NCBI GenBank assembly: GCA_035289485.1
Contig: DATDXA010000003.1
Span: 1-46,868 of the forward strand
Direction: 5' to 3'
DNA: 46,868 nucleotides
Source: an archaeon
GTDB lineage: Archaea; Iainarchaeota; Iainarchaeia; Iainarchaeales; Iainarchaeaceae
Within the stretch, counting starts at the first letter, position 1, and each line of letters opens with the position of its first letter. The notes under the pieces are model-generated. The model was given only the letters and a program-made list of their open reading frames with translations. It had not been told where the DNA came from and ran no database searches. Below, one piece after another: positions 1 to 36,647 of this stretch. The position numbers and the translations under genes are program-made.

Positions 1-762
1 GCAACCCCGATGTATTTCAACAGCTACGGGCTGCAGTTTGACCCGGGCAACGCGAGCAACACGCCGCAGACAAAGCAAAAGAACAATGCGATAAATTCGC
101 AGCCGCTTTCATATGGCTTCGTGAATTCTTACACGAACGGGACGGAAAAAGGGAGGATTGTTTCAATAACGGGGGCGGGGGCAATCACGTACTCGCCATC
201 CGACCCCATGAAGGTTTCAATCACGCTAAAAAACATCAGGGACACGGCATCGGCGGCGCTCTTTGACTACCAGATAGGCAATGTGAACTCCCCGCTTGAA
301 GTGTCCTGGAAGATTGACATGGCATCGGGCAGCCAGGCATCTGCTGTGAAAACTGGCAAGCTCTCGGTGTCCGAAGTGTGCCCCGATGTTGCCAATGCAT
401 CCGATGTCAAGCACGACAGCGTGAAGATTGAGGCAAAGCAGGGAGATGCGACGGCGCAGGCGCTCGTCTATTCGCCGCAGTCAAGGGGCGCGAAACTGCA
501 GTTCGTGCTGCTGCCGTGCCGCAGTGCGGGCGGAGATTCTGCGGGGGCTTCATACGCGCCTGACAACACCCCGGTTTCATCAGTCCCAATAGTCGGGAGC
601 AGGGAGCTCACGCTGCAAAAGGACGGCACCGATGCCTACACCTATAACCTCAAGAGCATTCTCCAGAAAGTGCGCGGAAACGGGCAGGTGTGCATAATCC
701 CGACCGCAGGAAACGGCATTGACCTCTACTGGAATGATGGCGCACTCCTGAATGGTTCCTGA
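1..762 (+). CDS. C-terminal part (5'-truncated by window edge) of a further giant surface-protein paralog
   Basis: Frame is open from base 1. The C-terminus LKSILQKVRGNGQVCIIPTAGNGIDLYWND aligns with the ends of the three giant proteins (MQDVFNLVQDGYMCVSG..EFFWNP; IEDAFRMVENRQACIT..KIWWNP; ISDVFGLVQNEKVCVV..QFFWNP). Confidence 0.7.
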   Translation, partial: ATPMYFNSYGLQFDPGNASNTPQTKQKNNAINSQPLSYGFVNSYTNGTEKGRIVSITGAGAITYSPSDPMKVSITLKNIRDTASAALFDYQIGNVNSPLEVSWKIDMASGSQASAVKTGKLSVSEVCPDVANASDVKHDSVKIEAKQGDATAQALVYSPQSRGAKLQFVLLPCRSAGGDSAGASYAPDNTPVSSVPIVGSRELTLQKDGTDAYTYNLKSILQKVRGNGQVCIIPTAGNGIDLYWNDGALLNGS

Positions 763-774
763 AGTGAAACTGAA

Positions 775-1275
775 ATGACCCAGGTCAAAGCAACTTATGC
801 GTTCGGCGCAGTGATGTATTTTCTCGGTTTTGCAGCTGTCAATTCAGTACTAAGCCCGCTCAGGTTCAGCGGGAATTTCCATCCCGCGCTCGAGCTTTCG
901 GTCATTGCTCTCGGTGTTTTTTTCCTCTCGGCGCTCTATTACGGAAGATTTTACTATCTGCCACTGCTCGCCTGCGGGCTGTACTTTGGTGGATTGTTTG
1001 CAGGCCAGCCATTTTACTCTGTTTTTGCGCTTGCGCCGCTTCTGTATGCGATGGCTTCGGGCGCGCAAATGGGGCAGCTTGCATACGAGGACTTCAGGGG
1101 AAAAACTAATCTTTTTGAAAAGGGCACGCACTTTGCGGCAAACGCGGTGTGGGCAATTGTGATATCAGTTATAATTGGCCTGCTTCTTGGCGGGCTTGGT
1201 TTTGAAGACCTTCCAAGCATCGGGCTTGATTTGAGCGCACTTGAGGATTTCATAAGTAGCCTTACAATACAATAA
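775..1275 (+). CDS. Hypothetical polytopic membrane protein (about 4-5 TM)
   Basis: 166-aa ORF with several hydrophobic segments, starting 12 nt after the upstream stop. Confidence 0.8.
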   Translation: MTQVKATYAFGAVMYFLGFAAVNSVLSPLRFSGNFHPALELSVIALGVFFLSALYYGRFYYLPLLACGLYFGGLFAGQPFYSVFALAPLLYAMASGAQMGQLAYEDFRGKTNLFEKGTHFAANAVWAIVISVIIGLLLGGLGFEDLPSIGLDLSALEDFISSLTIQ

Positions 1276-1357
1276 TATGGCCGCCAATTTTTGGCTTTTT
1301 TGGGCAATGAAATATAGGCAAAACACCGCCAAATCGGCACAAAGGGCGTTTTGCACC

Positions 1358-1374
1358 AAGAATAAACTTATAAA
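1358..1374 (+). promoter_or_regulatory. Putative archaeal BRE/TATA promoter of giant protein 1
   Basis: Purine-rich AAGAATAAA followed by CTTATAAA about 45 nt before the TTG start; SD-like GGTGAT at 1408-1413. Confidence 0.4.
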
Positions 1375-1416
1375 GCAAGTGAGCAATAGATATTATTACG
1401 GTTAATCGGTGATTCT

Positions 1417-4400
1417 TTGGGCGTTTTTGACGGAATAAAGGGATTTTATTTCAAGCTTGAGGAGAAATACTATGATTTCCTTGATAGCGTCAATGCGCAC
1501 GTTCCAATTTATGAAATAATAGACCCTATTGACAAGGTAGTCCCAAGTTTTCTTCTTTTCATTGCGCTTTTTTTGGCGGCGGCAGGGCTTGTGCTGGCGG
1601 GAGTTTTCGGGCTCGGGGGACTCGGAAATGACACGCTCACTATTTCGGTGCAGGACTCTGACGCTAACCCCATTTCCGACGCGACAGTTACATTTTCACG
1701 CGATGATTCCGTGGTTTCAAGCGTGCAGACAGATGCACTCGGGATAGCCGTGCTTGCAGGAGTGAAGCAGGATGAGAGCATTGAGGTGGTTGCGGAAAAG
1801 GACAGCTATCTTTCCTCGTCAAAAACCATTATCATCGCTTCGCTGCCCGCTGCGGAAAATATCCTTCTCGACCTTGCATCGCAGGCATCTTCAGAGAGGA
1901 CAATAAGGCTTCTTGATGAGCTTGGCCAGCCTGTTTCCGGCTCTTTCACATTAAGATTCAAGTGCTCAAACCCATATGCACCTGCAATAGCCGATGTTTT
2001 GCTCTCAGGCCAAGACAGGGGCGTTGCACGGGTAAATATGCCAGGCAACTGCGAAAGGCTCTCTGTTGATGTGCTGGATGGCGGAACGCACAGCGACATT
2101 TATGGGCAGGTTGTAAGCGGCGAAGACCAGGCGATTTACCTTGAGGCCGAGGAAACTGGCGATGCGAAAATAGTCGTGAATGTCTCGGACGCTTCTGGGA
2201 ACGCGCTGAGCGGGATTGAAGTGCAGCTATACAAATACAGCGAACTTATAGACAACCCAAATGTCGGGCCGATTGATGTCGCATATACTTCAGGAGGACA
2301 GGCAACTTTCACAAAATCCCCAGGGAGCTACGCTGTAAAGGCATATGACAGCCAGGGGCAATTCGGCGACAAAGTATCGGGAAAGATTACTGCAGTTGCG
2401 GCTCAGAGCGCGACCGTGAATTTGGCGCTTGCAGAGGACATAAAGGGCAAGGTACTTGTGAAGGTCATTGACAAGAGAAGCGGGGCGGCAATACACAGTG
2501 CCCAGGTGAGCCTGTTTTATGCGGCGGCAACTTCGAAAGACGCGCCGATAAACACGGTTCCAACTGCGGCTGATGGCACAGCGGGAATCAATGTGAGCAG
2601 GGACTCCGAATTCAAGGCGATTGTATCCGCAAGCGAATACCAGTCGGTGACAATCGGCGGCTTGCGAATCGGGACAACGGCGGCAACAGTTCAGCTTGAG
2701 AAGTGCACGCCCTCAACATGCGGATTGCTAAAAGTCAAGGTGGTGGACCAGGACGGCAGCCCGATTGACGGGGCAATTGTAACTCTTTACAACGCCTCGA
2801 CGAATTTCCAGGCAAATTATGCTGGCAGGACAGCGGACATCAACGGGCTTGCAAAGTTTTCTGGAATAAGCAACGGCAATTACTACGCGTTCGCGTTCAA
2901 GGAAGGGTTCTCTGGAAGGAGCGATGCGGGATATTTTAGCAGCGACCAGAACAAATCGGATGCGCAGAACCTCACGGTCACAATGAATGTTGATGACGGC
3001 ATTGCCGCGGTGAAGGTGCGGGACACCGATGGCAGGCCGATTGCCTTCGCAACAATCGGGCTTTTTGATGCGAGGACGAATGCGCTTGTCGGAAGGGACC
3101 TGACCGATTCGAACGGTTCAAAGGAATTCTCGCTCAAGGCGAACAGGAAAATATATGTTGTGGTCAGCAAGCAAGACGAGCAGGTTTATGCGAACTACAT
3201 CAGCGCAAAGAGGGCAATGATTCCGTCCGGAGTGCAGCAGTTCGATGTCACGCTTGAAAAGCCGATACTTAGCGGCGAAATATCGATGGAGTTCCTCGGC
3301 ATGCACTCGGCCGATGGAAAAAGGGCGGAGAATCTAAAGGCCGGCGACACTTACAGGGCAAGGTTCAAGGTGCGCGTGCCTGAAGAGAAGGATTATGGGT
3401 CAATGGGCGTTCATGTGAGGGCCGGAAGCGATGTGCTCATGGAAAAGGACGCGCTTTTCATAAAGGAAGTAAATGCGCCGCGCACTTCGCAGGTGCGCGC
3501 AACAAGATTTGAGGATGAGAGAGGCGGGCTTGATGAGGGCGATTATGACCTTACAATCGGCGATGCAAAGTGGGCGAACCTTACATGGAGCAGCACCTCC
3601 GCGGGCATTTACGAGGTGGAGGCGGAAATAGGGGTGCGCGAATCGGCATCAATTGGGGACAAGCTTTTCCTCAATTACAGGACATGGGGAGAATACAGAG
3701 ACGGCAAAAGGGACAGGTTCCCAAAGGATGATACGGTTACTAAGGAGCTCTACAGCAACACAAAGCAGGAAGTTTTCCAGGTGGGCGTTGTGACGCTCTG
3801 TGATGAGGACTTCTGCTTTACGGCAACCGTAACGGACAACCGCAATGACCTTATAGAGTCGGTGCAGGACACATACAACGCCAAGGTGTTCAACCCCTAC
3901 AGGCTGCAATTTATAATCACGAACAATTCTGAAACGCGCATACACAACAGCGCAAATCTGAGGATTGGCAACGCCGATGAGAGCCTCAAGTTCTTTGATT
4001 ACAAGATTACCGATGCGGAAACGCAGCCAACAAGCGGGACACTCAACGGCTTTGAGTTCCCAAGGCTCAATGTCGGGGACCTGCGGCCCAAGAACTCCGT
4101 GAGGTTCGAATCCGAGTTCACGCCGCAAAAGTCCATAAGCGGGATACTCAATGTAAGGCTTGTCTCGGACCAGGACATAGTGTTTGAAAAGAACATCACG
4201 GTAATTATCGCGGCGCCAAAAGAGCTGGATGTGCAGATTGAACCGAGCGTATTCCTCTCAGGCATTGAAAATGACATCAGCGTGATTGTAACTGACAAGG
4301 CAAACGGCCTTGAAATCGAGGGCGCAATCGTGAGGGTCAAGGACGGCCACAAGAACGTGCTTGATTATGATGTTACCGGAAAGGACGGCAATTCGATGCT

Positions 4401-7400
4401 CACTCTGCCTGGCCAGAAGCCCGGAAAGAAGCTCTATCTCGAAATCGAGAAGACGGATTATAATGTGAAATTAATCGAGCTCGCCGTAAGCGACCGGCTG
4501 CTTGAAATTACGCCCTCTCAGATTGGCGTTAGCGTAAACACAAAAAACAAGCAGCAGTCCGAGGACAAGATCACGCTCCGAAACGTCGCGCCATACCCGC
4601 TTAAAATCACGGACATAAGGCTCACGGGAGATTTCAAAAAGCTGCTTGATACCGCGCGCATAAGGAACTGGCTTGAGAGCTCCTATCGGGAAATGGTAAT
4701 AGAGCCGGATGAAAAGAAGGATGTGACGCTGAAAACTTTCCTCTCGCAAGATGCGCTCGCGCTCTCAAACAGGGCAACGCTTGAGGGAACGCTTGTAATT
4801 GTTGCAACCAACTTCGGGCAGGAGTGGGTGTTCAATGTCCCTGCAAAGATTGCGGTTGGATTAGGAGATGAGGTTGATGACCCCACATGCCTTGTGGTAA
4901 CAAAGGGCGAGTGGACAACGAGCACTTCAGGAACACCCAAAAGAACCGAGTTCCAGATACAGAACAACTGCACAGTTGGAAAAAGGCCCGTGGCGCTGCA
5001 AAACCTTGAGGCGAAAATCGGCTGGAAGACCAATCAGCTAGGAGAGTACACGCTAAACATAGGGCCAGATGAGGTAACATTAAGGCCGGGATATTACAGG
5101 ATACTTTTAGGGACGCTAAAGCCCGAGCAGTCGCTTACCGCAATACTCACATTCACGCCCTTTGGCGGGGTGAGCGGGGCTGGCGAAGCGGACATCGTGA
5201 TACAGGCAACGAACCCACTAGAGGATGAGGACCAGGCGCTTTCGAACACAATAAAGACAAAAATCACTTCCGTTAATTTGAAGCAGTGCCTCAGCTATGA
5301 CAAGGAAAGGCTTTCGGTGAACCAAAACGAGAGCGGCGCGGTTACAATCACCGCAACAGAGGTGTGCGGAGAGGGCGTTGACTTTGAAATAAAGAGCGAT
5401 CTTATGACCACGCCAAGGAGCGAATTCACATTGCAGCCGGGGCAGAGCCAGGTAGTGCAGATTTTCGCGGAGAAAAACTATCCGGGGCAGTACGCGCTTT
5501 TCATAGAGCCAAAGTTCGCCTCGGATAAAAAAGAGCAGCTTGTAAAGAACATCCGCGTGATTGTGAACGCGCCAGGGTGCTGGCAGCTAAGCAAGTACGA
5601 GTTTGATGTTTTTGATGACAAAAGAAATGAGTTCGATGGGCTTGACAGCGCGGATTTGACAAACAATTGTGTGCAGCGGCCTGTGACAGTGAAGGTTAAT
5701 GCCAAGGACTGGATGGATGCCGCGCAGGACGGGCTTTTCTGGGGATTGGGTTCGATGGCGGCTGTGATGCTCACAAACTATGGCAAGGGAGATTATGACA
5801 TCTGGGGCAACACAAGGGGAACTGTTTCACTTGGCCAGGTGCAATATAGCAAGAATGCCACCGGAGATTGGATTGGGCCTGATGGGCAGAAGGTTACTGA
5901 CGCATCGCTCAAGAGCACGCTTAATGCAAAGCAGAGCGGAACAGCAACGCCTTTTTCTTCGGCGGTTGTGAACGGAAAGACAGCATACAAAAACAGTTCC
6001 GGGCAGTGGTATGACCAGTCCGGGGTAGAAATCAAGGACGATTCGCAAAAGCAGGCTTATGAGAACGCCCTCAAAAAGGCACCCGTGATGGAAACGGTAA
6101 CTGTTCCAAATCCGGAAACCATTGCGCCTGTAAGGGACAGTACGCAGTCAACTGCGGCGCCACAGGTGAGTGCCCAAGCACAGGCAGAGATTAATTCACT
6201 GAAATTACAGCTAGCGGAAGCGCAGGCAAAGCTTAAAGCCGTGGGAGCAGCGGCTTCAAATGCGCAGCTGCAGCAGTCCAAGGACCTGCAAAGCCAACTC
6301 GTGCAGAAACGGCTTGAGATTGGGTCTGGATTGAAAATAACGCCGCCTGACCAAGTGACAAGTACTGACATTGTAACACCAGGAATTCCGGTACAGCAAA
6401 CTCCGGAGCCGACATCGGTTGACATCCCAATAGAAGCGGCAGATGAGGTCGTGGTATACGGCAGCGGATTATATTACATAAAATCCAATGGCAGGGTCGT
6501 GGATTACTGGCTTGGCACTGAAGTTGACCAAAGCACAGCCATCGAAGTCATCAATACATCATTGCGCAATGCCGAGAAACCTGCAGGCCCAGTCGGCATC
6601 ACCGGCCAAGCGGTCCTCCCATCAGCCCAAGGACTTGCGCCATACACCGCTGGCAGCCAGCAGCAGAGCGGCGCTACGAGCGGAATCTTTGGAGGCCTTG
6701 CCCAGGGAGCTGGCAACTCGCTTAGCGGCAACCTGCTAAGCGGCGGTGGGGGCATTGTAAGGGGCCTTCTTGGCTCTAACCCATGGGTCGGCGGGCTTAC
6801 AGGCTTTGTTGTCGGAACCGCGATTTCATACTTCGGGCAGGAAAAGGAAGTAACATTTACCGTGCTGCAAAAGGACACAGAGATAAAGAGCGTAAGAGTG
6901 ATACAGGGCTCGGGCCCGGCTGAAAAGGATGACAAGGACATAGCCATTACAGTGCAGGGAATCGGCGGCAAGAAGGGAGATACGGCGCCAACGGTTGCGC
7001 AGCCGCTTGCAAACACCCCAGATTTGATTTCACAGGGAATTGAAAACATCAAGCTTACGTTCCAGAACGCGAGCGGGTTCACTACAAGCGAGGAGCAGCC
7101 AAAGACGCCCGCGCCAAACCTCAAGGTGGCGGGAGTGAGGCACAACTACAAGGACAGGGTTTATGACAAGAAGGATTTCGTCACGGAAACGGGCGGATTT
7201 TTGGGATTCTTTGACCAGCCCCTCATTGACAAGGGAAAAACAAAGCTCGATGAGGAAGCGGAACAGAAGCTTGAGCAGCAGTACAGGCTCGAATTCAATT
7301 CAATCCCGCCCACGGTTGAAACCAGCCAGCCGCTCGGGCTTCTCAATTGCCAGGACGGCACAAGGACAGGGAGCACGGGTTCTGATGCGCTTCCTAAGGT

Positions 7401-9234: not shown

Positions 9235-9236
9235 TT

Positions 9237-9584
9237 ATGCGCAAATATGACCCTAGTGCCGGCAGGGTACGCAGGGAAAGAAGGCCATCTTCAGGCTCGT
9301 GGGCTCCGCGTGGCAATGCTGAGGAACTTGCAAAAAGGCTTGCAAAGATTGTGGCAGCAGGCACAAAAAAACCCGGACCGCACACAAATAGAAAGCTCTG
9401 GGCGCCAGATGATATTTTAAGAAGGACCAAAGCTACAGCAGAACAAAATTCCAGAAGTAGAAGAGGCCCACAAACAGCACTCGCGGTGTTGCAGGATGAA
9501 TGGAAAAGGGAGCACACCGTTAACACACGCATTAGCCTTGGCAGGTCTGCAAAAAGAGAATGGTTGGCCCCCGCAAAAAAATAG
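9237..9584 (+). CDS. Small Arg/Lys-rich hypothetical protein (115 aa)
   Basis: ATG at 9237, 2 nt after the giant-1 stop, preceded by SD-like GAGGTTGAT; fills most of the gap between giants 1 and 2. Confidence 0.45.
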   Translation: MRKYDPSAGRVRRERRPSSGSWAPRGNAEELAKRLAKIVAAGTKKPGPHTNRKLWAPDDILRRTKATAEQNSRSRRGPQTALAVLQDEWKREHTVNTRISLGRSAKREWLAPAKK

Positions 9585-9753
9585 CAGTAACCGGAGGGAA
9601 AATAGCGGGAGATACGCTAAAGAAACTGGAACTGGAGTCTGAGGAATGCGTCGCGGCGCCACAAAATTATTTAGATGAGCCTGAAGCCACAAAAAGGAAA
9701 AAGCTGGGTTCAAAAAAGTTTAATAACCGCCAAACTGTAGTATTAGCGGTATT

Positions 9754-16533: not shown

Positions 16534-16656
16534 ATTTTGCGTGAAAACCATGCAATAAAATTGCACGGATTAAAAGGCAGATAAAGGGTTTTTTGGCGAA
16601 TCGGAGCCACGATAAAAGGTTTTTTAACAACAAAAACATTACTATTGCTTGGTTAT

Positions 16657-22600: not shown

Positions 22601-23931
22601 CGATTGTCTGGACAAATGAAATACCAAATGCCGGGGCGTTCATGGATACGGTGCATTTCAACGCTCTCCTCATCAAGGACGGCTATAGCGACGATTTCAA
22701 GGGCGATTTCGCGCACCACTATTCAACAGAGAGATTCTTCGACACCCCAGACTGGTTTGCAGCCCTTGCAAAGGACAGCACAGGAAGGGATTATGGGGTT
22801 GGCAGGCTCTTTGAGCAGAACATGATAAAGTTCACGAACAGGTTCTTTGATTCCGCTCAGCTATCAAGCGCGGGAGTTCACGAGGTGCTAATAAGCATAA
22901 GAGGGGACAACGGAAAATTCACTTTCTTCAACGCAGACGGCACAGCGAATGCTGGCATTAATGTTGAATTCTACCTAATACAAGAGCCAAGCCCAAATTC
23001 GGCATTCTATTCAATTCCATTTGACGGGCTTGTGGGACTTGAGGGCGATTCATTCAACAGGCAGGGATACGGGACAAGCTTTATCAACAGCGAAACAGGG
23101 AAATTGATAGCAATCAACAATGAAGCCGAGCCTGCAAAAACCTACAACGATGGCGGGAGCAACCCCGTAACATTTGTGAATTCGCATCTTGAGAAAAGCT
23201 TTTACGGTCTGAACGCATCCCCCTCGCAGCGCGGGAACTTGCTCAGTATTGAAAAGACGGCTGCAGGCGAGGCGGATTTGAGGTTTGCCCCGTCCAAGGC
23301 GACGCCTGTGACCCTGAAGGTTAATGCTGGCAGCATTTCAGCGGAAAATCTCGCCGCGTTCTATAGGATTACGGCAACAGAAGCCCCAGTGGATTCCGGG
23401 CAGACGGCGACATATTGGGATGGTGCGGGAGCCTGCCTTGACAATACCGGAACTCTCATTACAGAATCATTTGACACCCGCCCTGACAGGGCTGCGCAGC
23501 CACGCGACCCTGTGCTCAACTGGCAGAGCGCGTACGGAGTTGACTTCGGGCCGGTAAATTACACGGGGGAGGTATACATCAGGACGATTTTCTACACAAA
23601 TCCCCTTGAGCAGTTCGCGATTGCCTCGGAGTTGCCTGCCGAGAAAATGCAGTTCATAACGCCTGATTCAAAGGGATCAAAGGTCGCGTTGGGCGGAGTT
23701 AGCGGCGAGCAATTCAACAACCCGCTTGGAGGAACTTCAGGGACAGTTGGCAGCATAAGCGATGTGTTCGGGCTTGTGCAAAATGAAAAGGTGTGTGTTG
23801 TGGATTCGGGCAGGAACGCGCAGTTTTTCTGGAACCCGAAAAGCATTTATGAGATGGGCGAGGAAAAAAGCATTTCAAATCTTTCCAATTCCCTTGTTGC
23901 CGGGCAGACATGCATCGGGCTGGGTGATTGA
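16657..23931 (+). CDS. Giant membrane-anchored surface protein 3 (about 2424 aa)
   Basis: ORF 16645..23931, likely ATG at 16657; N-terminal TM (LLAGAGLIAIVVLGLVFL); motifs CMPATCG, AKWA, CDEDFC, GRTGNGALPRI, YCDATQ, WDGAGAC, FFWNP. Confidence 0.9.
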   Translation: MEFLDNIRDSLVSMWESQDRAKLLAGAGLIAIVVLGLVFLSISGLSAGQLTVVTKNSSGEALWKTSVKLSGLEGDFSGTTDRSGTIVFSGVPAGKKFTIEAFGTGFETSKTDFILTKSAEETQITLKAEQENAPALKVITFAGPDGVKLDKKLITVELSCSSGLTVNNSVQQVSNGRLEVEAPSGCGVLSATISAAGFETDTFNLNESSVIRLQALQTEQGRAIVVVKDAAGRFLDNIEVSILDSRGIPTGEVEITSFGEASFSLDSGKYIARAYDSTLAYASAQTEFSIAAKSEARAAITLEEKPLATITAKVIDKSSKAEVKNATVVLESPDGAKISREFNGGNVSLALSKIGIYKLSASADGYARSNEISVNSASIPSQGYTLEIAKCMPATCGILTVSVRDEDNEPVANARVAIVNLDTGFFAEEYGLKYTDINGAAKFSGVKTGKYNAIVQKYPAEGSSEPFDAVTGTDARVKAQLTIGEGTIEVLALDPDGKPVAFGFAEFRSEGRERLGKLPLNSQGKAAFTTKADKKVFVTLSADGYTNYTSGGTQVYPGKIVSINAELRREILGDGPGIEFIGLFDESGRAAGAIFSGNAYSARFIVSVPENSADELEQLGVFIRTGEDSIVEKDPIYINSVDAPRASVLKGSTYSEPKGTEEDEAHITNGEAKWASIVWDRSEIRQGLYEAAVEIKARESATPGASMPIFYRAYGVKEDGSVVRDPIDTELGTGEETSAKHALYAKSYEKEYAEGAIEECDEDFCYSQRIIDTKNDLYLTPPYQLRIFGNYTMEFSITNNSRSVHDSSNIRIKNSVDGTILGKSLRIISYNITNAASQQFSSSTPAFEISPIALGDFRENKEIRAKLMLKPEVLGLSALDIRIVSDREQVFTRQVQVNVVNEKDLNVSVRPLTMPAFTQFDLNVEARFFSTEADFDEVEGAFVRVERATPDRQKSTFTSITDGEGKARIRIPASPPGTRIKVRVEKDGFAGKEHSFEISKSVVSFNPASIKSSLDLTTNTEQRVALEATNLVPIELTVSEMRFAGDFKGLLDSSRMNNWLDQYVGKSTLAHGSTAQFTLLSAISDDAKQISEIRKLNARLVFEVSTKDGGIKWPMEVPAQIAISLAEPPKNPGCIEVGLKEWKDATLGGKAEIEFYIKNGCVGQNGKPLDLRSLKAKIAWKSNKYGNVELHVTDHENAQEASEALSEGDYSTLFESVPGGKEYTAILVFTPKGGTIGKKAEFSVLVDAAQNAVDGEQLVGASNQIAAQIDIIDLSQCVKYTPEPESGVRLEETQSDAKLDIDASACGNVNIDFWLCKDDKDCSGGAEGGITVSPEQFTLTPQSAKKSVVVSRQQIPGLYGIGVFVRTPGSNYRQINTVDVLAKPTKEDAFELFKYEFSAVGKGSQDSTELTNRFFVEDIGVDASICDWGDATEKGWFDWKFAGIGAIVGAIKGMQPAMAAAKEAAKTLSTQTSNTLKAAQSAQDASSASNAASTSTAEALCSKVKSAQAAVASAQAACSGSSAAAAVGGANTAMTSANTACEKAKEQVRSAGLLDTVIRTALRVIGIPFSGNTSAVAGATQNAQKQGSNIALTQSDLSAIQGNITTANSELGVAHAAISDDCSNVYTSGICLACNAALGTADSQVAAANGAASSYSGGQLPKSATDTASTASAGQATQQAATSTWSKMLHPLRTMTSSFGPSGIMAAYTVGGFMVGGLLGGLFGTDPCAQHTTANLPDYRINLLDDVRGIESGSGKFGYAFGIDSAKIIGTWEKQRIGLVATNSGVSSAKPVYDTVTLSVAQHLHTNPTKIDAGNKDFGPFKVPDQQKINVDAKLHLKFKTQDVEEQIPELDFDTVSCVAGNKIGRTGNGALPRIKLDWGFGEGGIGNETCLESNQKGVYCDATQFSITLSKRLNSLREFFSANQNLRCPANPLSGQFGAIHTDLNAQQSLALSTSCYISDWSGYTDGEPTIQALIEANKNTIVWTNEIPNAGAFMDTVHFNALLIKDGYSDDFKGDFAHHYSTERFFDTPDWFAALAKDSTGRDYGVGRLFEQNMIKFTNRFFDSAQLSSAGVHEVLISIRGDNGKFTFFNADGTANAGINVEFYLIQEPSPNSAFYSIPFDGLVGLEGDSFNRQGYGTSFINSETGKLIAINNEAEPAKTYNDGGSNPVTFVNSHLEKSFYGLNASPSQRGNLLSIEKTAAGEADLRFAPSKATPVTLKVNAGSISAENLAAFYRITATEAPVDSGQTATYWDGAGACLDNTGTLITESFDTRPDRAAQPRDPVLNWQSAYGVDFGPVNYTGEVYIRTIFYTNPLEQFAIASELPAEKMQFITPDSKGSKVALGGVSGEQFNNPLGGTSGTVGSISDVFGLVQNEKVCVVDSGRNAQFFWNPKSIYEMGEEKSISNLSNSLVAGQTCIGLGD

Positions 23932-24318
23932 ATGGAACAGATTGGCGCACTTGTGTTATTGGGTGTTTTCGAGATTTTCAACGACTTCAATCTCATCATA
24001 AAAATTTTTGTGCTAATGACTCTTGCAAGCTGGGTTAGAAACCATCTGGGCGATAGCCCTCTTAGTTGGATACTTATCGGGGGCCTTGGGTATTTCATAC
24101 TCTTTGATGGCTGGGCGATTTTCGGGCCGATTTATCTTCTCTACATGCTCCTCGGGTTCGGGGTGAGTTCGGTAATTATTGACTTCTTCTTTGTAGGCGG
24201 CGGAAGCCCTCCTGCGCCTGAGGAGGGAATGGAGTCTCCCGTGAGCAGCGGAGTTGACATAATGAAGAGGATGCACGAGGCGCATGCCGCGCACCATGGA
24301 ATGAGGAGGGGCGGCTGA
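23932..24318 (+). CDS. Small membrane protein A (128 aa, about 3 TM)
   Basis: Starts directly after the giant-3 stop; hydrophobic core with WVRNHLGDSPL motif; His/Gly-rich tail. Confidence 0.85.
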   Translation: MEQIGALVLLGVFEIFNDFNLIIKIFVLMTLASWVRNHLGDSPLSWILIGGLGYFILFDGWAIFGPIYLLYMLLGFGVSSVIIDFFFVGGGSPPAPEEGMESPVSSGVDIMKRMHEAHAAHHGMRRGG

Positions 24319-24638
24319 TGAACCAGAAAGGCCACATAATCCTGATAATCATAGCCGCATTCATAGTTCTTGCGATAATTCCAGTGGTAATAACAAGCGT
24401 ATTCTGGCCGGCAAAAATTTTGATGCAGATAATAATGATTTTCACGCTCTACACTACAGTGCGCGGTTTTCTGGGCTCTGGAACGCCAACCCTTGTGATT
24501 TCTGCAATCCTGATTTATTTCATGGTTTTCAAGTATTTTGAGATTTTCCTCTCGCTCTACATTCTCCAGCTCCTTTTGGGCCTTCAGTTCCTTTCCGTCA
24601 TTATATGGGGTTTAGGCACCACCATGAGGAAAGGTTAA
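24318..24638 (+). CDS. Small membrane protein B (106 aa, about 3-4 TM)
   Basis: TGATG stop/start overlap with the previous gene; almost entirely hydrophobic; TVRGFLGSGTPTL motif. Confidence 0.85.
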   Translation: MNQKGHIILIIIAAFIVLAIIPVVITSVFWPAKILMQIIMIFTLYTTVRGFLGSGTPTLVISAILIYFMVFKYFEIFLSLYILQLLLGLQFLSVIIWGLGTTMRKG

Positions 24639-24687
24639 GGATTTATTATGCGGCAGACAATAGTATTTGGGAAATGGGGCTGAAAAA

Positions 24688-24948
24688 ATGGCATACCCTT
24701 TTGGAGACGTACTTGGCAGCGTTTACATAGTCGGCGTGCTCTTCATCTTTATCTGGATTTTTGGCTGGACCAAGGAAAACTTAGGGTCAGCTAAGCTTGC
24801 AATACTTTTTGCCATAATTGTCGTATATCTCACATTTTTCAGCTATGATTTTTTGTTCTGGGTTCTGCTGGCGTTCTTCCTGCTCCAGACGCTTGGAAAG
24901 GAATTCATTTCGCAAATAAACCCATTTGGCGGGGACCAGCTGAGGTGA
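24688..24948 (+). CDS. Small membrane protein C (about 86 aa, about 3 TM)
   Basis: ORF 24667..24948, likely ATG at 24688; WTKENLGSAKL motif resembling A and B. Confidence 0.8.
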   Translation: MAYPFGDVLGSVYIVGVLFIFIWIFGWTKENLGSAKLAILFAIIVVYLTFFSYDFLFWVLLAFFLLQTLGKEFISQINPFGGDQLR

Positions 24949-25029
24949 CTTTTAAATGAATGCTGAAGGTTTAGTTGCGAAGCCAGCCCTGCTGAAAGCA
25001 GTGCACCTTGCCAGCCGAACATTGCTGAC

Positions 25030-25078
25030 CGAAGGCCACCGCCCCCTTCCGATGGGCTTGTCGGACGGAGGTGCCCGC
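25030..25078 (+). repeat. GC-rich palindromic intergenic repeat, copy C
   Basis: CGAAG-N5-CGCCCCCTTCCGA, hairpin TCCGA..TCGGA, then CGGAGGTGCCCGC identical to 13 nt of the copy at 45471-45532. Confidence 0.55.
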
Positions 25079-25080
25079 TG

Positions 25081-25407
25081 ATGGACACATTCAATTTTCT
25101 CCTGACGACAATGCTGATGATGCTTGCAATACAGCTTCACGAACCCTTCATCGCGCTTGGAATTCTTGTAATAAACATTCTAACTTCCAAGGATCTCTCA
25201 ACCATAATCGCGTTCATAGCGGTTTCAGCGGGGCTCTTTCTCATAATAGGCGGTGGGTGGGATGATAGCTGGTGGCTTGTTGCGATATTTGGAATCATTG
25301 TAATTGCGATTGTAAGCGGCTCAAAGTCCGCGCCAGCGCAGCCTGACATGGGGCTTGGGGGCTATGGGGACCTGCTTGGCGGAATGGGCGGCGCAGGTGG
25401 GTATTAG
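25081..25407 (+). CDS. Small membrane protein D (108 aa) with Gly-rich tail
   Basis: Three to four hydrophobic segments, C-terminal GLGGYGDLLGGMGGAGGY; SD-like GGAGGTG upstream. Confidence 0.85.
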   Translation: MDTFNFLLTTMLMMLAIQLHEPFIALGILVINILTSKDLSTIIAFIAVSAGLFLIIGGGWDDSWWLVAIFGIIVIAIVSGSKSAPAQPDMGLGGYGDLLGGMGGAGGY

Positions 25408-25799
25408 TGCAGCTTGTTTTGCTGATTGTGTTTTTGCTTGCGATAATTTTTCTTGTGCAGGCAAAGATTGTCTGGCTAGCCGGCATTGTTTTTTTGCTTC
25501 TTTTGCTTGACCTATTTGGCGGCGTGGTTTCAAAATTCTTTGGCTTTGTTGGCGCTGCGGCAGAGGCAACAGGTGAAATCGTTGCAGAGGAAGCAGGGGA
25601 AGTTGAGGCTGCAAAAACCAAGTATCCTCATGGCAAGAAGTTTATTGACGAGGGACTTGGAAGGATAGGAAAAGAGCTTGGGAAGAAGGAGAAGGAGCGT
25701 GATGAAAAGAAGAAAATGAAGAGCAAACTAAATGTGGCAAATGCTGTTGGAGCAATTGACAATTTCATGATGGGATTTGGGAAGCTGTTTAAGAAATAA
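25407..25799 (+). CDS. Small membrane protein E (130 aa) with charged helical C-terminus
   Basis: GTG start overlapping the previous stop (TAGTG); two N-terminal TM segments followed by a Lys/Glu-rich region. Confidence 0.8.
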   Translation: MQLVLLIVFLLAIIFLVQAKIVWLAGIVFLLLLLDLFGGVVSKFFGFVGAAAEATGEIVAEEAGEVEAAKTKYPHGKKFIDEGLGRIGKELGKKEKERDEKKKMKSKLNVANAVGAIDNFMMGFGKLFKK

Positions 25800-25838
25800 G
25801 AGAAGTTAAGAAATAAAAAAAGGAATTTGTGCGTGCGG

Positions 25839-26438
25839 TTATTTCTTCTGCAATTCAAGCAGCGTTTTCCTGTTGGTTTCAAGTATTTTCTGCAGCAGGC
25901 CCTGAATCGCAATTGTATTCGCTTTTGTTTGAGCAACTTCTCTTTCGAGGGCAGATATGCGCAAATCAAGCGCCGAAAGCTTTGCAATTTCCTCGCCTGA
26001 AAGCCTTGGCGTGGAATCAAGTTTTTCATGCAGCGCGGAAATGTCATTATGCATCTCCTCCATCTTGCCGGTGTGCTGGTCTAGAACTGTGTGGGTGGTT
26101 GTGTGATTTGCAAGCTGCTCTTCGCCAGAATCTTCTATCTGGTCTTTAAGGTCAGTATCTGCATCTTCCTCTTCTCCCGCGTATTCTGAATCATCGCCTT
26201 CTGAGAGCTCTTCATTAGCACCCTGCTCCGGATCTTGTTCACTCTCTTGTGAAGCGCCCTGCGCAGCAGAAGCGGGAGATTGCCCGAGCCCTTTTGCATC
26301 GCGTATTATTTGTAAAATTTCAGGGTCGCTTAGGCCAATGCCCTGCAGGGTCGCTTTTATAGTGGCATCATCAACGCCTGTTGAAACCATCCTTTTTACG
26401 GTCTGCAAAACCACATCAGTTGAAACCATTTCAAACAC
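25839..26438 (-). CDS. Acidic coiled-coil hypothetical protein (199 aa)
   Basis: Small helical N-domain, very acidic linker and heptad-patterned C-terminus (LDLRISALEREVAQTKANTIAIQGLLQKIL). Confidence 0.8.
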   Translation of the reverse strand: MFEMVSTDVVLQTVKRMVSTGVDDATIKATLQGIGLSDPEILQIIRDAKGLGQSPASAAQGASQESEQDPEQGANEELSEGDDSEYAGEEEDADTDLKDQIEDSGEEQLANHTTTHTVLDQHTGKMEEMHNDISALHEKLDSTPRLSGEEIAKLSALDLRISALEREVAQTKANTIAIQGLLQKILETNRKTLLELQKK

Positions 26439-26558
26439 CGTTTTCCTTTGCGAGCCAATCCTTGCCTATTCTGCATATTAGGGATTAACCGATATTTAAA
26501 TTCTCGGTAGCGAAGGAGCAGATGGCCTTATTGTAAAGTCAGGCCTACCGAGCCCGAG

Positions 26559-26598
26559 CGAGGTAGTCCGCTCCCTCCCGACGAGCAGGTCGGGGCGC
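26559..26598 (+). repeat. GC-rich palindromic intergenic repeat, copy B
   Basis: CGCTCCCTCCCGAC-GAGCAGGTCGGGGCGC (26569-26598) matches the reverse complement of 45471-45521 at 28 of 30 aligned positions. Confidence 0.65.
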
Positions 26599-26635
26599 AT
26601 AACGTATATATAGGAATTATGCCCAATACTTTGAA

Positions 26636-28141
26636 ATGAACCTTTTCAGGATAGGCAATGGCCCTTGGGAGAAGCTTTTTTCAGGGGTTTTTCAAGAGCA
26701 CGATATTGAGCTATATTCTAACCCTGACAGGATTTTGCTTGTTCTTATTTACGAAAAAAAGCTCGATGTTTTGGAAGGGGCAATAGCCGAAGTTTACAAG
26801 GTTTTCCACGCAAAAGGGGAAGTCGAGGCTTTTACAGAAACGCTCCCCCGCGAGGCGCTGATAATTACAAAGCATGATGAGCGGAGCACAATGAAATTCC
26901 TGCTCCTTGGAAGCAAGCCAAATTATGTAAGATGGATTGAGGCCGAATTCATTGAAGAGGTAGATGCCATGGTAAAGAGGCTTTCAACATCCTCTGCAAT
27001 GATGAAGGACGTTTCAAAAGCGTATGAGCTCACACTTAGCGAAATTGGAGAGTCCGAGCAGGAAGTGCAGACTGCATTCTTTGCCCAGCCAATGCTTGTC
27101 CCGATACTTACAACGGCCTCGCACGGAAGCGTCTTCCAAGAGCCTCAGATAAAGCCAATCACAAAGGGCGAGATAATGCTTGGAATCACGCGCGACCGCA
27201 GCAGGGTAATAGAGCCGCTTGCGCTTTTTACAAAAACGATAATAACCGATGGGGAGGAAAAGGACAGGAACAGGGCGCTGCAGGTAATCGGGGAGAGCGC
27301 GCTTCTTTCAAACGTTCCTGCGGTTTTTGTGGATTTTAACAGGAAATTTATAGGCATCGGAGAGGCAAATAAGAATGCTGGCGAGCTGCAGAAGTATGAT
27401 GTCAATGTTGATGCGCTTGGTTTTCCTGCAAGGGTTCTAAAATCGCGCGAGAGCATCCGAATTGACCTGAACCTGCTCAACACCGAAGGGACAGCTGAGC
27501 TTTTTGGGGTTGGAGAAAAGGATTTTCCGAGAATTCTTAGAATGGCTCTGGACGCTGGCCCGGTTGCCACCATGAATGAGCTGGTTGAGAGGGTTTCGAA
27601 TACCGCGCAGACAGAGGAATTCAGCGAATTTAAAATCCGCAAGGCCGCGAGAATACTAAAGCTTATGGACGTCATTTATCCTAATCTTTTCGGCGGGCAA
27701 AATGATATTGAGGACATGGCAAAGCAGGGGCTTGCAAACATCGCAAGGGCATCGCTTCTGGAGTTCGAGGCAATGGACCAGCGCGCATCGCTTCTTCTTT
27801 TCCACTCCGTAATGAGAGGAATTTATGAGTACGCAAAGAAGAAGGGAAAATCCTCGGAAGTCCGGCTCATGGTGATAATTCCGCACGTGCACTACCTTAA
27901 GGGAAAGGGCAGGCAGCAGATTGATGTTGATGATATCGCATCGATTCTAAAGGACCTGCAAGGATTCGGGGTTTCATTTGCGATTGCGGCAGACAGCCTC
28001 ATTGATGTGAATCAGGAGATAAAGAATGTCGCAAACGCCAAGCTAAATGTCGTGAGCGAAAACGATCTGGGTGTGCAGCTAATCAACAGGAAGGCATACA
28101 GGGTGCTTGTGCGGCCAACGCTTAGCAGGCAGACGATTTGA
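26636..28141 (+). CDS. HerA/FtsK/VirB4-like P-loop protein with degenerate Walker A and B (probable pseudo-ATPase)
   Basis: HerA-like context EIMLGIT..TKTIITDGEEKDRNRALQVIGESALLSNVPAVFVDF. GxxGxGKS is replaced by DGEEKDR, and the Walker B position reads LMVIIPHVH instead of hhhhDEAH. Confidence 0.7.
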   Translation: MNLFRIGNGPWEKLFSGVFQEHDIELYSNPDRILLVLIYEKKLDVLEGAIAEVYKVFHAKGEVEAFTETLPREALIITKHDERSTMKFLLLGSKPNYVRWIEAEFIEEVDAMVKRLSTSSAMMKDVSKAYELTLSEIGESEQEVQTAFFAQPMLVPILTTASHGSVFQEPQIKPITKGEIMLGITRDRSRVIEPLALFTKTIITDGEEKDRNRALQVIGESALLSNVPAVFVDFNRKFIGIGEANKNAGELQKYDVNVDALGFPARVLKSRESIRIDLNLLNTEGTAELFGVGEKDFPRILRMALDAGPVATMNELVERVSNTAQTEEFSEFKIRKAARILKLMDVIYPNLFGGQNDIEDMAKQGLANIARASLLEFEAMDQRASLLLFHSVMRGIYEYAKKKGKSSEVRLMVIIPHVHYLKGKGRQQIDVDDIASILKDLQGFGVSFAIAADSLIDVNQEIKNVANAKLNVVSENDLGVQLINRKAYRVLVRPTLSRQTI

Positions 28142-28164
28142 AAATTTTATAAATAGGCACTGGA

Positions 28165-28650
28165 TTATTTCTTGCTTCTTGCAGCTCTCGCGCCCGATAG
28201 CTCCTGCACATCCTTAAGCGTTGCAAACTCAAGCGGATTGATTGAATTTATCACATATTTCATTTCACTGACATCCTCTGCCTTTGCGTAGGTCTCTTTT
28301 ATGTTTCCGATTTCGGATTCGAGCGCCGCGAGCTTTTCCTGGATTTCACTTAGCTGCGTTGAAATGCCCGCCATTCCCCTTTCAAAGGAGGATGCATCCA
28401 TTGAGGAGCCCTGCGCCCGCCCTTCCTGCATATCCTTTAGCTTCTTGTTGAGGACTAGCAGGTTGCGCCCAAGGATTTTCTCGTTGCGCACGAGGTATTT
28501 GATTTTTTGCGAAATTAGCATGATGCTGCTATTAAGCGCAGTGATATCGCCGTTGATTTTGGAGAAAATGCCCTGCGCGGGACCTGAAATCTTGCGATCC
28601 TGCCCCTGCTGTGGCTGATCTTGCGGCATGTGCCTTTGGTGCGGCGGCAT
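28165..28650 (-). CDS. Coiled-coil hypothetical protein (161 aa)
   Basis: Heptad-patterned helices and a C-terminal INPLEFATLKDV segment; divergent from polB. Confidence 0.8.
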   Translation of the reverse strand: MPPHQRHMPQDQPQQGQDRKISGPAQGIFSKINGDITALNSSIMLISQKIKYLVRNEKILGRNLLVLNKKLKDMQEGRAQGSSMDASSFERGMAGISTQLSEIQEKLAALESEIGNIKETYAKAEDVSEMKYVINSINPLEFATLKDVQELSGARAARSKK

Positions 28651-28697
28651 AAATAAAACCCGGTGCTAATAAAACACTTTATTGATAGAATATGCAT

Positions 28698-35800: not shown

Positions 35801-36628
35801 GTGAAAAAAATAGCTTTGATTGTTTTGATTGCATTTACACTGCTTTTTGGATGCACCCAGAAAGCGCCACAGCAGGAAAATACTGCGAATGCAATGAAGG
35901 ATTGCGCCACTAATTTTGACTGCTTCATAGACTCTGCAGATAAGGGAAATTCGGCGAGTGTCACCAATTCGGTAACGGTCGATTTTTTTGGAATGAAGCA
36001 GACATCAACTAGCTATGCAGAAATAAGAAGTTGTAGTGACGGAGTTTGCTCATACTACACTAAGTTTATTGATGCGAGTGCAACGTTCCCGGAAGGGACG
36101 CCCCAAGAGGCAATTGATTCGAGCAATAAAGTGTACGCGGCAATAAAGGGCCTTGATGGCACATGTACCTTTAAACAAAGCGATTTGGTTTCAATGCTCA
36201 AAAGGTGGAAAGACGGGAATTTTTCTACTGCGGATTATGACGAGGGGGATTGCAAAGGTGACTTGTTTAAGGCGCAGGTTATAGATACAGGAAACAATGG
36301 AAATGGTGCCACGATAGATACTGAAAATGGAGACAACGCAGTTGCCGAAAGTTCTGGTAGTAGTTCCATAGGATCCTGTACAGATTCTGATGGCGGCAAG
36401 TCATACTTTATGCAAGGAACGACAACTGGAATTTGGGATTTCTACACGGGGGATTTAAGTGACCCTGCATTATCTTCAGCCCATACTGATTTGTGCCTTT
36501 ATAATTATGGTGAAGTGAATGGTAACCCAGCTGCAGTAGATGAGTATTATTGTAATTCGAGCGGGCGAAAATCGGAAGAAACTTACTTGTGCCCAAAAGG
36601 ATGTGTTGACGGCGCATGCATTAAGTAA
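35801..36628 (+). CDS. Cys-rich putative lipoprotein
   Basis: GTG start; lipobox-like signal MKKIALIVLIAFTLLFGC; C-terminal CTDSDGG...EYYC...CPKGCVDGAC module. Confidence 0.8.
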   Translation: MKKIALIVLIAFTLLFGCTQKAPQQENTANAMKDCATNFDCFIDSADKGNSASVTNSVTVDFFGMKQTSTSYAEIRSCSDGVCSYYTKFIDASATFPEGTPQEAIDSSNKVYAAIKGLDGTCTFKQSDLVSMLKRWKDGNFSTADYDEGDCKGDLFKAQVIDTGNNGNGATIDTENGDNAVAESSGSSSIGSCTDSDGGKSYFMQGTTTGIWDFYTGDLSDPALSSAHTDLCLYNYGEVNGNPAAVDEYYCNSSGRKSEETYLCPKGCVDGACIK

Positions 36629-36647
36629 CTATTGTAGAGGCGAAACA

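What the first reader, a model, noticed from the sequence alone, without database searches (positions are those of the whole stretch)
1..28650. Candidate undescribed cell-surface machine: at least 4 paralogous giant proteins, a small membrane-protein cluster, a HerA/VirB4-like pseudo-ATPase and coiled-coil proteins
Seen in sequence: more than 22 kb encodes co-oriented, mutually paralogous, N-terminally anchored proteins of 2200-2600 aa. They have Ig/carboxypeptidase-regulatory-like stalk repeats and a conserved Cys-rich C-terminal half. Giant 3 abuts a tightly packed run of five small membrane proteins, followed by a HerA-like protein and two coiled-coil proteins. Established: small hydrophobic subunits plus a HerA/VirB4-type ATPase is the architecture of archaeal Ced/Ted and bacterial type IV secretion systems, and many DPANN archaea attach to host cells. 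Inference: a hetero-oligomeric attachment, penetration or uptake organelle rather than a simple S-layer.
Basis: partly seen in the sequence, partly recalled or inferred. Interest (0 to 1): 0.82.

Follow-up and report, generated by a model that had tools for sequence, protein, structure and literature searches.

The report
Conserved giant surface-protein cluster in Iainarchaeota
A small groundwater archaeon carries a conserved block of genes for several giant cell-surface proteins, a set of tiny membrane proteins, an inactive HerA-like ring protein and two helical proteins; together they look like an undescribed machine that builds or anchors its cell surface.

Summary
Window 1-28650 encodes the C-terminal end of one giant protein and three complete paralogous giants of 2605, 2259 and 2428 aa. 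After them come five small membrane proteins, a 501-aa protein flanked by two helical proteins, and then DNA polymerase B.

The organism belongs to Ca. Iainarchaeota (Diapherotrites). The 501-aa protein has a HerA fold (Foldseek E 2.3e-12) but lacks both Walker motifs in all 20 aligned orthologues. It occurs in 146 of 151 genomes of the phylum.

The giants lie beside this module in 27 of 37 genomes examined. In four genomes from the three families where they lie elsewhere, small membrane genes of the m1/m2 family moved with the giants; in two of those families m3 or m4 stayed with the HerA-like gene. m1, m2 and m3 are paralogues.

None of the small membrane proteins, helical proteins or the giants' 700-aa C-terminal domain matches a Pfam family above its cut-off, and the parts searched against PDB gave no match.

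The defining features of Ced, Ted and type IV secretion systems are not met. There is no active ATPase and no VirB6-like channel.

My best reading is a phylum-specific module that anchors or assembles a multi-giant surface structure. Whether that structure is a general coat or a host-attachment organelle cannot be told from sequence.

The parts
1..762 (+). C-terminal 253 aa of a fourth giant ('giantB'), cut by the contig end
   Evidence: Aligns with residues 2242-2490 of the 2493-aa giantB of G009 (E 3.9e-17) and with the G013 and AR10 giantB (no significant match to the G010 giantB), which sit in the same position upstream of the g166 gene.
775..1275 (+). g166: 166-aa membrane protein between giantB and G1
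   Evidence: Has hydrophobic segments. Orthologues of 153-176 aa occupy the same position in AR10, G037, G035, G010, G009 and G013. No Pfam or NCBIfam match.
1417..9234 (+). Giant 1 (2605 aa): conserved ~45-aa cytoplasmic tail, one TM segment, Ig-like/CarboxypepD_reg repeats, low-complexity insert, conserved C-terminal domain
   Evidence: The tail motif is shown.
9754..16533 (+). Giant 2 (2259 aa), a paralogue without the low-complexity insert
   Evidence: Its last 700 aa were modelled at pLDDT 87.
16645..23931 (+). Giant 3 (2428 aa), the last giant; its stop codon abuts the m1 start
   Evidence: The orthologue in the same-genus genome G002 is 62% identical.
23932..24318 (+). m1: small polytopic membrane protein (128 aa)
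   Evidence: Paralogue of m2 and m3 (hhalign 98% and 95.7%). An m1-family ORF travels with the giants in 3 of the 4 genomes examined where these are separated from the HerA-like gene.
24318..24638 (+). m2: small polytopic membrane protein (106 aa)
24667..24948 (+). m3: small membrane protein (93 aa), paralogue of m1 and m2
   Evidence: It stays with cc1 and the HerA-like gene in family f3.
25081..25407 (+). m4: small membrane protein (108 aa)
25407..25799 (+). m5: 130 aa, N-terminal hydrophobic segment with a charged tail
   Evidence: By BLAST only same-family orthologues are found; other genomes carry an unassigned ORF of about 110-140 aa at this position.
25839..26438 (-). cc1: 199-aa cytoplasmic protein with a small N-terminal domain, an acidic linker and a coiled-coil-like C-terminus
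   Evidence: Alignment A4. Only weak coiled-coil Pfam matches. It is transcribed divergently from the HerA-like gene in the loci examined.
26636..28141 (+). HerAL: 501-aa HerA-fold protein without Walker A or B (pseudo-ATPase)
   Evidence: Present in 146 of 151 phylum genomes.
28165..28650 (-). cc2: 161-aa helical protein with conserved motifs 'RNEKILGRNL' and 'INPLEF'
   Evidence: Alignment A3. No family above its cut-off. The nearest Atlas clusters are all Iainarchaeota.
28692..31103 (+). Family B DNA polymerase: a conserved neighbour, not claimed as a component
   Evidence: PF00136, E 4.6e-67. Adjacent to cc2 or HerAL in most loci examined.

Best explanation
This is a conserved, phylum-specific cell-envelope module of Iainarchaeota.

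Four to five ancient paralogous giant proteins carry a short conserved cytoplasmic tail, one N-terminal membrane segment, roughly a dozen Ig-like or CarboxypepD_reg sandwiches, and a distal 700-aa conserved head domain. I infer that they form a hetero-oligomeric surface structure.

I infer that their membrane ends sit in a platform made of small polytopic proteins: the paralogues m1, m2 and m3, plus m4 and m5. On the cytoplasmic side the platform would be coupled to a catalytically dead HerA-fold protein, probably a ring, and to two helical proteins, cc1 and cc2. These would act as a scaffold or assembly checkpoint and not as a motor.

Shown here: the gene content, the paralogy, the HerA fold, the loss of the ATPase motifs, and the conservation and rearrangement-resistant linkage of the genes.

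Inferred: the physical contacts, the ring form, the extracellular location, and that the product is a constitutive coat or stalked canopy.
For: Synteny. Giants, then m genes, then cc1, HerAL, cc2 and PolB lie together in 27 of the 37 genomes whose HerAL locus was read with long enough flanks (13 of 14 genomes; 14 of 18 informative loci; further loci). These 27 genomes cover 21 families.

Rearrangements keep the links. In G028 the order is shuffled but all genes stay together. In G047, G067, G117 and G126 the giants lie elsewhere, and m1/m2-family genes sit directly downstream of the last giant: m1 and m2 in G047 and G126, m1-m4 in G117, m2 plus an unassigned 137-aa ORF in G067. In f3 and f22, m3 and/or m4 stay with cc1/HerAL or HerAL/cc2.

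m1, m2 and m3 are paralogues (hhalign 98%, 95.7% and 87.5%). This fits one hetero-oligomer that bridges the two gene groups.

Coupling in the window. The G3 stop abuts the m1 start, and the m1/m2 and m4/m5 pairs overlap by 1 nt. The last giant and m1 overlap in G040, G010 and G025.

Conservation against the same-genus genome G002: m1-m4 82-88%, PolB 77.5%, HerAL 75%, G3 62%.

HerAL. AF2 pLDDT 79.7. The top Foldseek hits are HerA (4d2i, E 2.3e-12; 143 hits at E <= 1e-3). PF01935 matches 9 of 20 orthologues. The Walker A site reads 'DGxExDR' and the Walker B site 'MxIxP' across the 20 sequences. The profile aligns this stretch with 'viEEAHvf' of HerA. HerAL occurs in 146 of 151 phylum genomes and 55 of 55 high-quality ones.

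Giant tails. A conserved motif 'YxSLExKYYxFLD..IPVYKxIDPID..PSF' precedes the TM segment in giants of all paralogue classes.

Split forms. The N-half and C-half are separate genes in G030, G024 and on the organism's own contig C63. The two halves are therefore modules that work together.
Against: All of the linkage is genomic. No expression, localisation or interaction data exist.

In 7 of the 37 genomes (families f3, f22 and f28) the giants are not next to HerAL. In f28 all four m genes go with the giants, leaving cc1 and HerAL alone.

Two genomes of another order (f32) have the m/cc1/HerAL/PolB module next to different large proteins. In one of them (G132, 82% complete) no giant C-terminal domain was found. 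The module therefore does not strictly need this giant family.

HerAL always sits near PolB and belongs to a family of DNA translocases, so a DNA-related role cannot be excluded.

G2 and G3 of this window have degenerate tail motifs. They show Ala-x-Ala-like sites after the hydrophobic segment (read), so they may be cleaved and released.
Confidence: 0.5

Rival explanations
1. This is a specialised host-attachment, penetration or uptake organelle. The giants would form a contact or penetration structure, and the m proteins with HerAL would form a conduit.
For: The organism belongs to the DPANN group, whose cultivated members are ectosymbionts (abstracts listed). The giants have long Ig-like stalks and a distal head of unassigned fold. 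Relatives carry, inside the same locus, a 390-600-aa protein with a type-IV-pilin-like N-terminus 'KGFTLFTALV'. The genome has prepilin peptidases and pilus ATPases elsewhere.
Against: HerAL lacks Walker A and B in all 20 orthologues aligned, so it cannot drive translocation. The locus has no VirB6-like polytopic channel. Each giant has 1:1 orthologues across many families. The giants diverge only moderately faster than housekeeping genes (G3 62% vs PolB 77.5% within the genus), unlike typical fast-evolving host-recognition proteins. No host is known for this lineage; that point is recalled and not tested.
Confidence: 0.2
2. These are two unrelated neighbours. The giants with m1/m2 would be a surface module. 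The cc1-HerAL-cc2 group would be a cytoplasmic housekeeping module, perhaps DNA-related, kept next to PolB by conserved gene order.
For: HerA relatives are DNA translocases (top structural hits). HerAL, cc2, PolB and MAP stay in order even where the giants are absent from the locus (G047). In G117 all the m genes sit with the giants, 25 kb away from cc1/HerAL. HerAL and cc1 have no hydrophobic segment.
Against: m3 and/or m4 stay with cc1/HerAL or HerAL/cc2 when m1 and m2 leave with the giants (f3, f22), and m3 is a paralogue of m1 and m2. The shuffled G028 locus interleaves the m genes with cc1, HerAL and cc2. The two groups are adjacent in 27 of 37 genomes across 21 families, at protein identities down to about 25%.
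Confidence: 0.25
3. This is a domesticated or resident mobile or viral element with a HerA-type packaging ATPase, small membrane proteins and large spike proteins.
For: The FtsK-HerA superfamily includes viral packaging ATPases (named in Table 1 of PMC4158269, passage seen).
Against: HerAL is nearly universal and gives mostly one match per genome in the phylum, at a fixed site next to PolB. No integrase is present. The ATPase motifs are lost. The C-terminal domain has no meaningful match in BFVD (best TM 0.14).
Confidence: 0.03

Closest known systems
HerA / FtsK-HerA superfamily ring ATPases (e.g. Sulfolobus HerA, PDB 4d2i)
   Same: The 501-aa protein shares the overall fold over its whole length (Foldseek E 2.3e-12, probability 1.00). 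PF01935 matches 9 of 20 orthologues.
   Different: About 9% sequence identity. Walker A and Walker B are replaced in the whole family. There is no NurA-like partner. The gene sits among membrane and surface-protein genes.
Ced / Ted DNA-import systems and bacterial type IV secretion
   Same: A HerA/VirB4-superfamily protein is encoded next to several small hydrophobic proteins. The Ced/Ted make-up is taken from passages of PMC9905601.
   Different: CedB and TedB are taken to power translocation, whereas HerAL has no ATPase motifs. No 6-7-TM CedA/VirB6-like protein is present. The m1 and m2 profiles find nothing in PDB sequences at E <= 10. Giant surface proteins are not part of Ced or Ted.
Tandem giant extracellular proteins of small genomes (Giant1-5 of Apilactobacillus kunkeei)
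   Same: Several consecutive genes for very large surface proteins take up a few percent of a small genome. Only the start of the abstract of PMC12863079, in the listing, was seen.
   Different: That case is a bacterium. No homology was tested. Nothing in what I saw links those genes to a HerA-like protein or to small membrane proteins.
Archaeal S-layer proteins with stalk and anchor (SlaA/SlaB, tetrabrachion; recalled, except SlaA/SlaB named in PMC11329633)
   Same: Large, membrane-anchored, probably glycosylated surface proteins that could hold a canopy above the membrane.
   Different: No sequence or fold match to any S-layer family. The anchor is N-terminal and not C-terminal. There are four to five paralogues. 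The accessory small membrane proteins and the dead HerA-like protein have no counterpart.

Membership tests
HerA family (FtsK-HerA superfamily) | HerA-type fold: N-terminal barrel plus RecA-like core | tested here: met
   AF2 model at pLDDT 79.7. The listed Foldseek top hits are nearly all HerA or HerA-like chains, best E 2.3e-12, TM 0.46-0.49.
HerA family (FtsK-HerA superfamily) | Sequence membership: PF01935 above its cut-off | tested here: inconclusive
   The window's protein has no Pfam hit. 9 of 20 orthologues match at E <= 1, best E 6.3e-09. Profile vs PDB HerA gives E 0.02.
HerA family (FtsK-HerA superfamily) | Walker A P-loop (GxxxxGK[ST]; motif recalled) | tested here: not met
   After strand 200-204 the loop is only 'GEE'. 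The family consensus is 'DGxExDR', with no GK[ST] in any of the 20 sequences.
HerA family (FtsK-HerA superfamily) | Walker B / catalytic acidic residues (hhhhEEAH in HerA) | tested here: not met
   'MVIIPHVH' in the window and 'MxIxP' in the family. This stretch aligns with 'viEEAHvf' of 4d2i.
Ced / Ted / type IV secretion | Active VirB4-like ATPase that powers translocation (PMC9905601 passages) | tested here: not met
   No Walker motifs. The listed structural hits are HerA-type proteins, with no VirB4 among them.
Ced / Ted / type IV secretion | VirB6/CedA-like channel with 6-7 TM segments | tested here: not met
   The small proteins of the locus are 93-166 aa, too short for 6-7 TM helices. 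No such gene lies between 1 and 28650.
Ced / Ted / type IV secretion | VirB2/CedA1-like two-helix pilin | tested here: inconclusive
   The m1 and m2 profiles give 0 hits against PDB sequences at E <= 10. Sequence similarity is not expected even between Ced and Ted pilins. No fold was made for m1-m5.
Characterised archaeal S-layer protein families | Match to a known S-layer sequence family or fold | tested here: inconclusive
   Pfam gives only CarboxypepD_reg, Big_1, SpaA and DUF7382 in the N-half. The C-terminal model matches only through its inserted Ig-like sandwich. The rest of that model is barely tested.
Characterised archaeal S-layer protein families | Forms a surface lattice | not testable with these tools
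   Needs microscopy.
Type IV pilus / archaellum-like systems | Pilin with a class III signal peptide | tested here: inconclusive
   Not in the window. Relatives have a 390-600-aa protein starting 'KGFTLFTALV' inside the locus. The motif reading is recalled. 7 such proteins gave no Pfam match.
Type IV pilus / archaellum-like systems | PilB/FlaI ATPase and PilC/FlaJ platform in the locus | tested here: not met
   T2SSE and T2SSF matches lie on other contigs (C5, C29, C31 and others), and none is in C3:1-31103.

The most novel reading that the evidence does not exclude
This is a new class of archaeal cell-surface machine, found throughout the Iainarchaeota genomes searched here. A hetero-oligomeric platform of small paralogous membrane proteins would be clamped from inside by an ATPase-dead HerA ring and two coiled-coil proteins. 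It would hold four to five different giant proteins by their conserved cytoplasmic tails and deploy them as a stalked structure for contact with other cells or surfaces. Energy, if any is needed, would come from elsewhere, for example ion flow through the m proteins.
Probability: 0.25. Interest if true: 0.9.

Novelty: categorically new. Interest (0 to 1): 0.72.

Why it matters
Iainarchaeota (Diapherotrites) have no cultured member that I know of, and no described cell envelope or host-contact apparatus.

This locus takes up about 2% of a 1.16-Mb genome in the window alone. It is conserved from genus to class level. It contains the most conserved proteins of the region (m1-m4).

Nine of its thirteen proteins have no family match above a cut-off in any library tried, and the giants' C-terminal domain none either.

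The locus gives a concrete target set for metaproteomics, cryo-ET and heterologous expression, to learn how these ultra-small archaea build their surface or touch other cells. It also shows a HerA-fold protein retained phylum-wide after it lost its ATPase motifs.

Tried and rejected
- Complex prediction of HerAL with the 48-aa cytoplasmic tail of G1 scored 0.00 in two runs. There was no verdict and the controls were not run. This is no evidence either way.
- The look-up of sequencing runs listed 9 DNA metagenome runs (groundwater and soil) and no RNA holder. Expression was therefore not examined and read laying was not used.
- ESM Atlas gave no usable hit for the G3 C-terminal domain. For cc2 all the high-scoring listed clusters are Iainarchaeota. 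The only named lead is FlaC_arch at 0.80, below the trust level. Pfam did not list FlaC_arch for any of 16 cc2 orthologues at E <= 0.01.
- Foldseek against PDB and BFVD, and VIA-wide, with the 700-aa C-terminal model matched only the inserted Ig-like sandwich (residues ~128-235). The other ~570 residues stay unassigned and barely tested.
- NCBIfam gave nothing above its cut-offs for nine locus proteins.
- PDB sequence searches gave nothing for HerAL alone or for the m1 and m2 profiles.
- Pfam scans of m1 and m2 orthologues gave nothing credible.
- A word-indexed homologue search with the HerAL profile returned the same Diapherotrites set as the single sequence. Occurrence outside the phylum is therefore not settled. 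One giant homologue carries a 'Candidatus Micrarchaeota' label in NCBI.
- A cell-division role in place of missing FtsZ is rejected, because the genome has three FtsZ/tubulin-family (PF00091) genes.
- Literature. Searches were run. I read passages of PMC6393860, PMC4858521, PMC4158269, PMC11329633 and PMC9905601, and sections 9 and 10 plus passages of PMC5898192. None describes this cluster. The predicted archaeal secretion and membrane-remodelling systems in PMC5898192 have other components (MoxR ATPase with vWA; SpoIIM and Yip1 families).
- The supplementary tables of these papers were not seen. They include the DPANN-specific cluster lists of PMC6393860 and could name some of these families.

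Full report
**What is there**

The window is the first 46,868 bases of contig C3 of a 1.16-Mb, 64-contig, 90%-complete genome. Record titles of close homologues place it in Ca. Iainarchaeum / Diapherotrites. One relative used throughout, G038, is a single 1,241,428-bp contig, the same length as the complete genome of archaeon GW2011_AR10.

On the + strand lie, in order:
- an ORF open at the contig end (1-762);
- a 166-aa membrane protein, g166 (775-1275);
- three giants, G1 (1417-9234, 2605 aa), G2 (9754-16533, 2259 aa) and G3 (16645-23931, 2428 aa);
- five small hydrophobic ORFs, m1-m5 (23932-25799);
- the 501-aa HerAL (26636-28141).

Two helical proteins lie on the - strand on either side of HerAL: cc1 (25839-26438) and cc2 (28165-28650). 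Family B DNA polymerase follows at 28692.

The G3 stop abuts the m1 start. The m1/m2 and m4/m5 pairs overlap by one base.

**The giants**

G1, G2 and G3 are clear paralogues. Each has one N-terminal hydrophobic segment. CarboxypepD_reg, Big_1, SpaA and DUF7382 matches are confined to the first ~1000 residues. The last ~700 residues have no Pfam match but are well conserved (A2: 29 sequences, 23 invariant columns including four Cys). Cys residues are not enriched in the C-half. They occur as conserved pairs along the whole length.

The fragment at 1-762 is not significantly similar to G3. It is the C-terminus of 'giantB', a ~2500-aa paralogue found upstream of g166 in relatives. A split paralogue lies on contig C63: a 1242-aa N-half, a 219-aa ORF and a 1126-aa C-half. 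Split forms also occur in G030 and G024. The N-half and the C-terminal domain are therefore separable modules.

Most giants in relatives, and G1 here, carry a conserved ~45-residue cytoplasmic tail before the membrane segment, 'YxSLExKYYxFLD..IPVYKxIDPID..PSF'. In G2 and G3 of this window the tail is degenerate.

An AF2 model of the last 700 aa of G2 is confident (pLDDT 87, pTM 0.79). Searches of PDB and BFVD match only an inserted Ig-like sandwich, so the remainder is unassigned.

An exhaustive profile search found 859 cluster representatives (550 at E <= 1e-30). Among the 150 listed, the domain sits at the C-terminus of proteins of about 2200-3250 aa or of shorter, probably partial or split, proteins. 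Five of the ten looked up carry names: 'hypothetical' or 'carboxypeptidase regulatory-like domain-containing protein'. Four of these are labelled Ca. Diapherotrites and one Micrarchaeota.

**The HerA-like protein**

The window's protein has no Pfam, NCBIfam or PDB sequence match. The model built on 20 orthologues (pLDDT 79.7) has HerA structures as its top Foldseek hits (4d2i, E 2.3e-12). 9 of 20 orthologues touch PF01935.

The P-loop position reads 'DGxExDR', and the Walker B strand ends in 'MxIxP' in all 20 sequences. A profile-to-PDB alignment places this stretch opposite 'viEEAHvf' of HerA.

The gene is present in 146 of 151 genomes sampled across the phylum and in 55 of 55 high-quality ones, mostly as a single match. 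The genome has four ordinary DUF87 proteins elsewhere.

**Small membrane and helical proteins**

m1, m2 and m3 are paralogues (hhalign 98%, 95.7% and 87.5%). m4, m5 and g166 are unrelated to them. None has a Pfam or PDB sequence match.

cc1 and cc2 give only sub-threshold coiled-coil matches. All the high-scoring Atlas clusters listed for cc2 are Iainarchaeota.

Against the same-genus genome G002, m1-m4 are 82-88% identical. That is more conserved than PolB (77.5%), HerAL (75%), cc2 (67%), G3 (62%) and cc1 (59%).

**Synteny**

I read the HerAL neighbourhood in 37 genomes with long enough flanks. Two further loci were too short.
- In 27 genomes, covering 21 families, the order is giants, m1-m4(-m5), cc1(-), HerAL, cc2(-), PolB, intact or with local changes.
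- In G028 the genes are shuffled but stay together.
- In 7 genomes (families f3, f22 and f28) no giant lies within about 16 kb.
- In two genomes of another order (f32) the module sits next to other large proteins and a pilin-like protein.
- One genome (G041) is ambiguous.

Where the giants are elsewhere, m1/m2-family genes follow the last giant in all four genomes checked: m1 and m2 in G047 and G126, m1-m4 in G117, m2 plus an unassigned 137-aa ORF in G067. In f3, m3 and m4 remain beside cc1/HerAL. In f22, m4 remains near HerAL.

The giant-m1/m2 link therefore survives independent rearrangements. Paralogous m genes are split between the two gene groups, which is the strongest argument that both groups serve one system.

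Upstream of the window's start, relatives carry the rest of the locus: giant0 (2350-2780 aa), a 390-600-aa protein with a pilin-like N-terminus, then giantB. These parts are missing from this assembly.

**Interpretation**

The best-supported reading is a constitutive, phylum-specific envelope module. It would consist of giant surface proteins held in a platform of small membrane proteins, with a non-catalytic HerA-like scaffold and helical adaptors on the inside.

Contacts, ring form and surface location are inferred. One interaction test gave no verdict.

The Ced, Ted or T4SS analogy describes the gene mix. It fails on the defining active ATPase and on the VirB6-like channel.

Sequence cannot decide whether the structure is a general coat or a host-contact organelle. 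Universality, fixed 1:1 paralogue classes and ordinary divergence lean towards the coat.

A real rival is that cc1-HerAL-cc2 is a separate, possibly DNA-related, module kept beside PolB.

**Novelty**

Four literature searches and the passages read show no description of this cluster. Supplementary tables were not seen.

Noticed in passing
window 37672-37788 (-), 42292-42389 (+), 45626-45729 (+): Rfam finds three tRNA matches of 98-117 nt against the 71-position model that ARAGORN did not report. They are probably intron-containing archaeal tRNAs.
   Followed up: no
window 33842-35077 (+) and 45672-46577 (-): Two free-standing ORFs have LAGLIDADG_3 domain matches (E 4e-05 and 3.8e-04). Each overlaps or abuts a tRNA gene: tRNA-Arg at 34950-35025 and the tRNA match at 45626-45729.
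   Followed up: no
window 36540-37124 (+): A 194-aa ORF matches the Arrestin_N domain (E 3.6e-07, above the cut-off), which is unusual in an archaeon.
   Followed up: no
G000 contig C63, about 10897-18643 (-): This is a split copy of the giant. It comprises a 1242-aa N-half with the conserved tail motif, a 219-aa ORF, and a 1126-aa C-half with its own N-terminal hydrophobic segment. It lies away from the main locus.
   Followed up: partly
L057:7116-8588, L060:8932-10599, L065:15539-17128, L066:4738-6468 (relatives): A conserved 390-600-aa protein starts with 'KGFTLFTALV' or 'RGFSLFAP', like a type IV prepilin. It lies between giant0 and giantB. In another order it lies directly upstream of the m genes. 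It has no Pfam match.
   Followed up: partly
window 5700-7300 (G1) and 20900-22100 (G3): G1 and G3, but not G2, carry a ~300-aa Ala/Ser/Gln-rich low-complexity insert between the N-half and the C-terminal domain. The insert is flanked by two Gly-rich hydrophobic stretches that fall below the TM threshold used.
   Followed up: no
window 9235-9753: The G1-G2 intergenic gap is 520 bp, much longer than the other gaps in the array. No conserved ORF or RNA family was found in it.
   Followed up: partly
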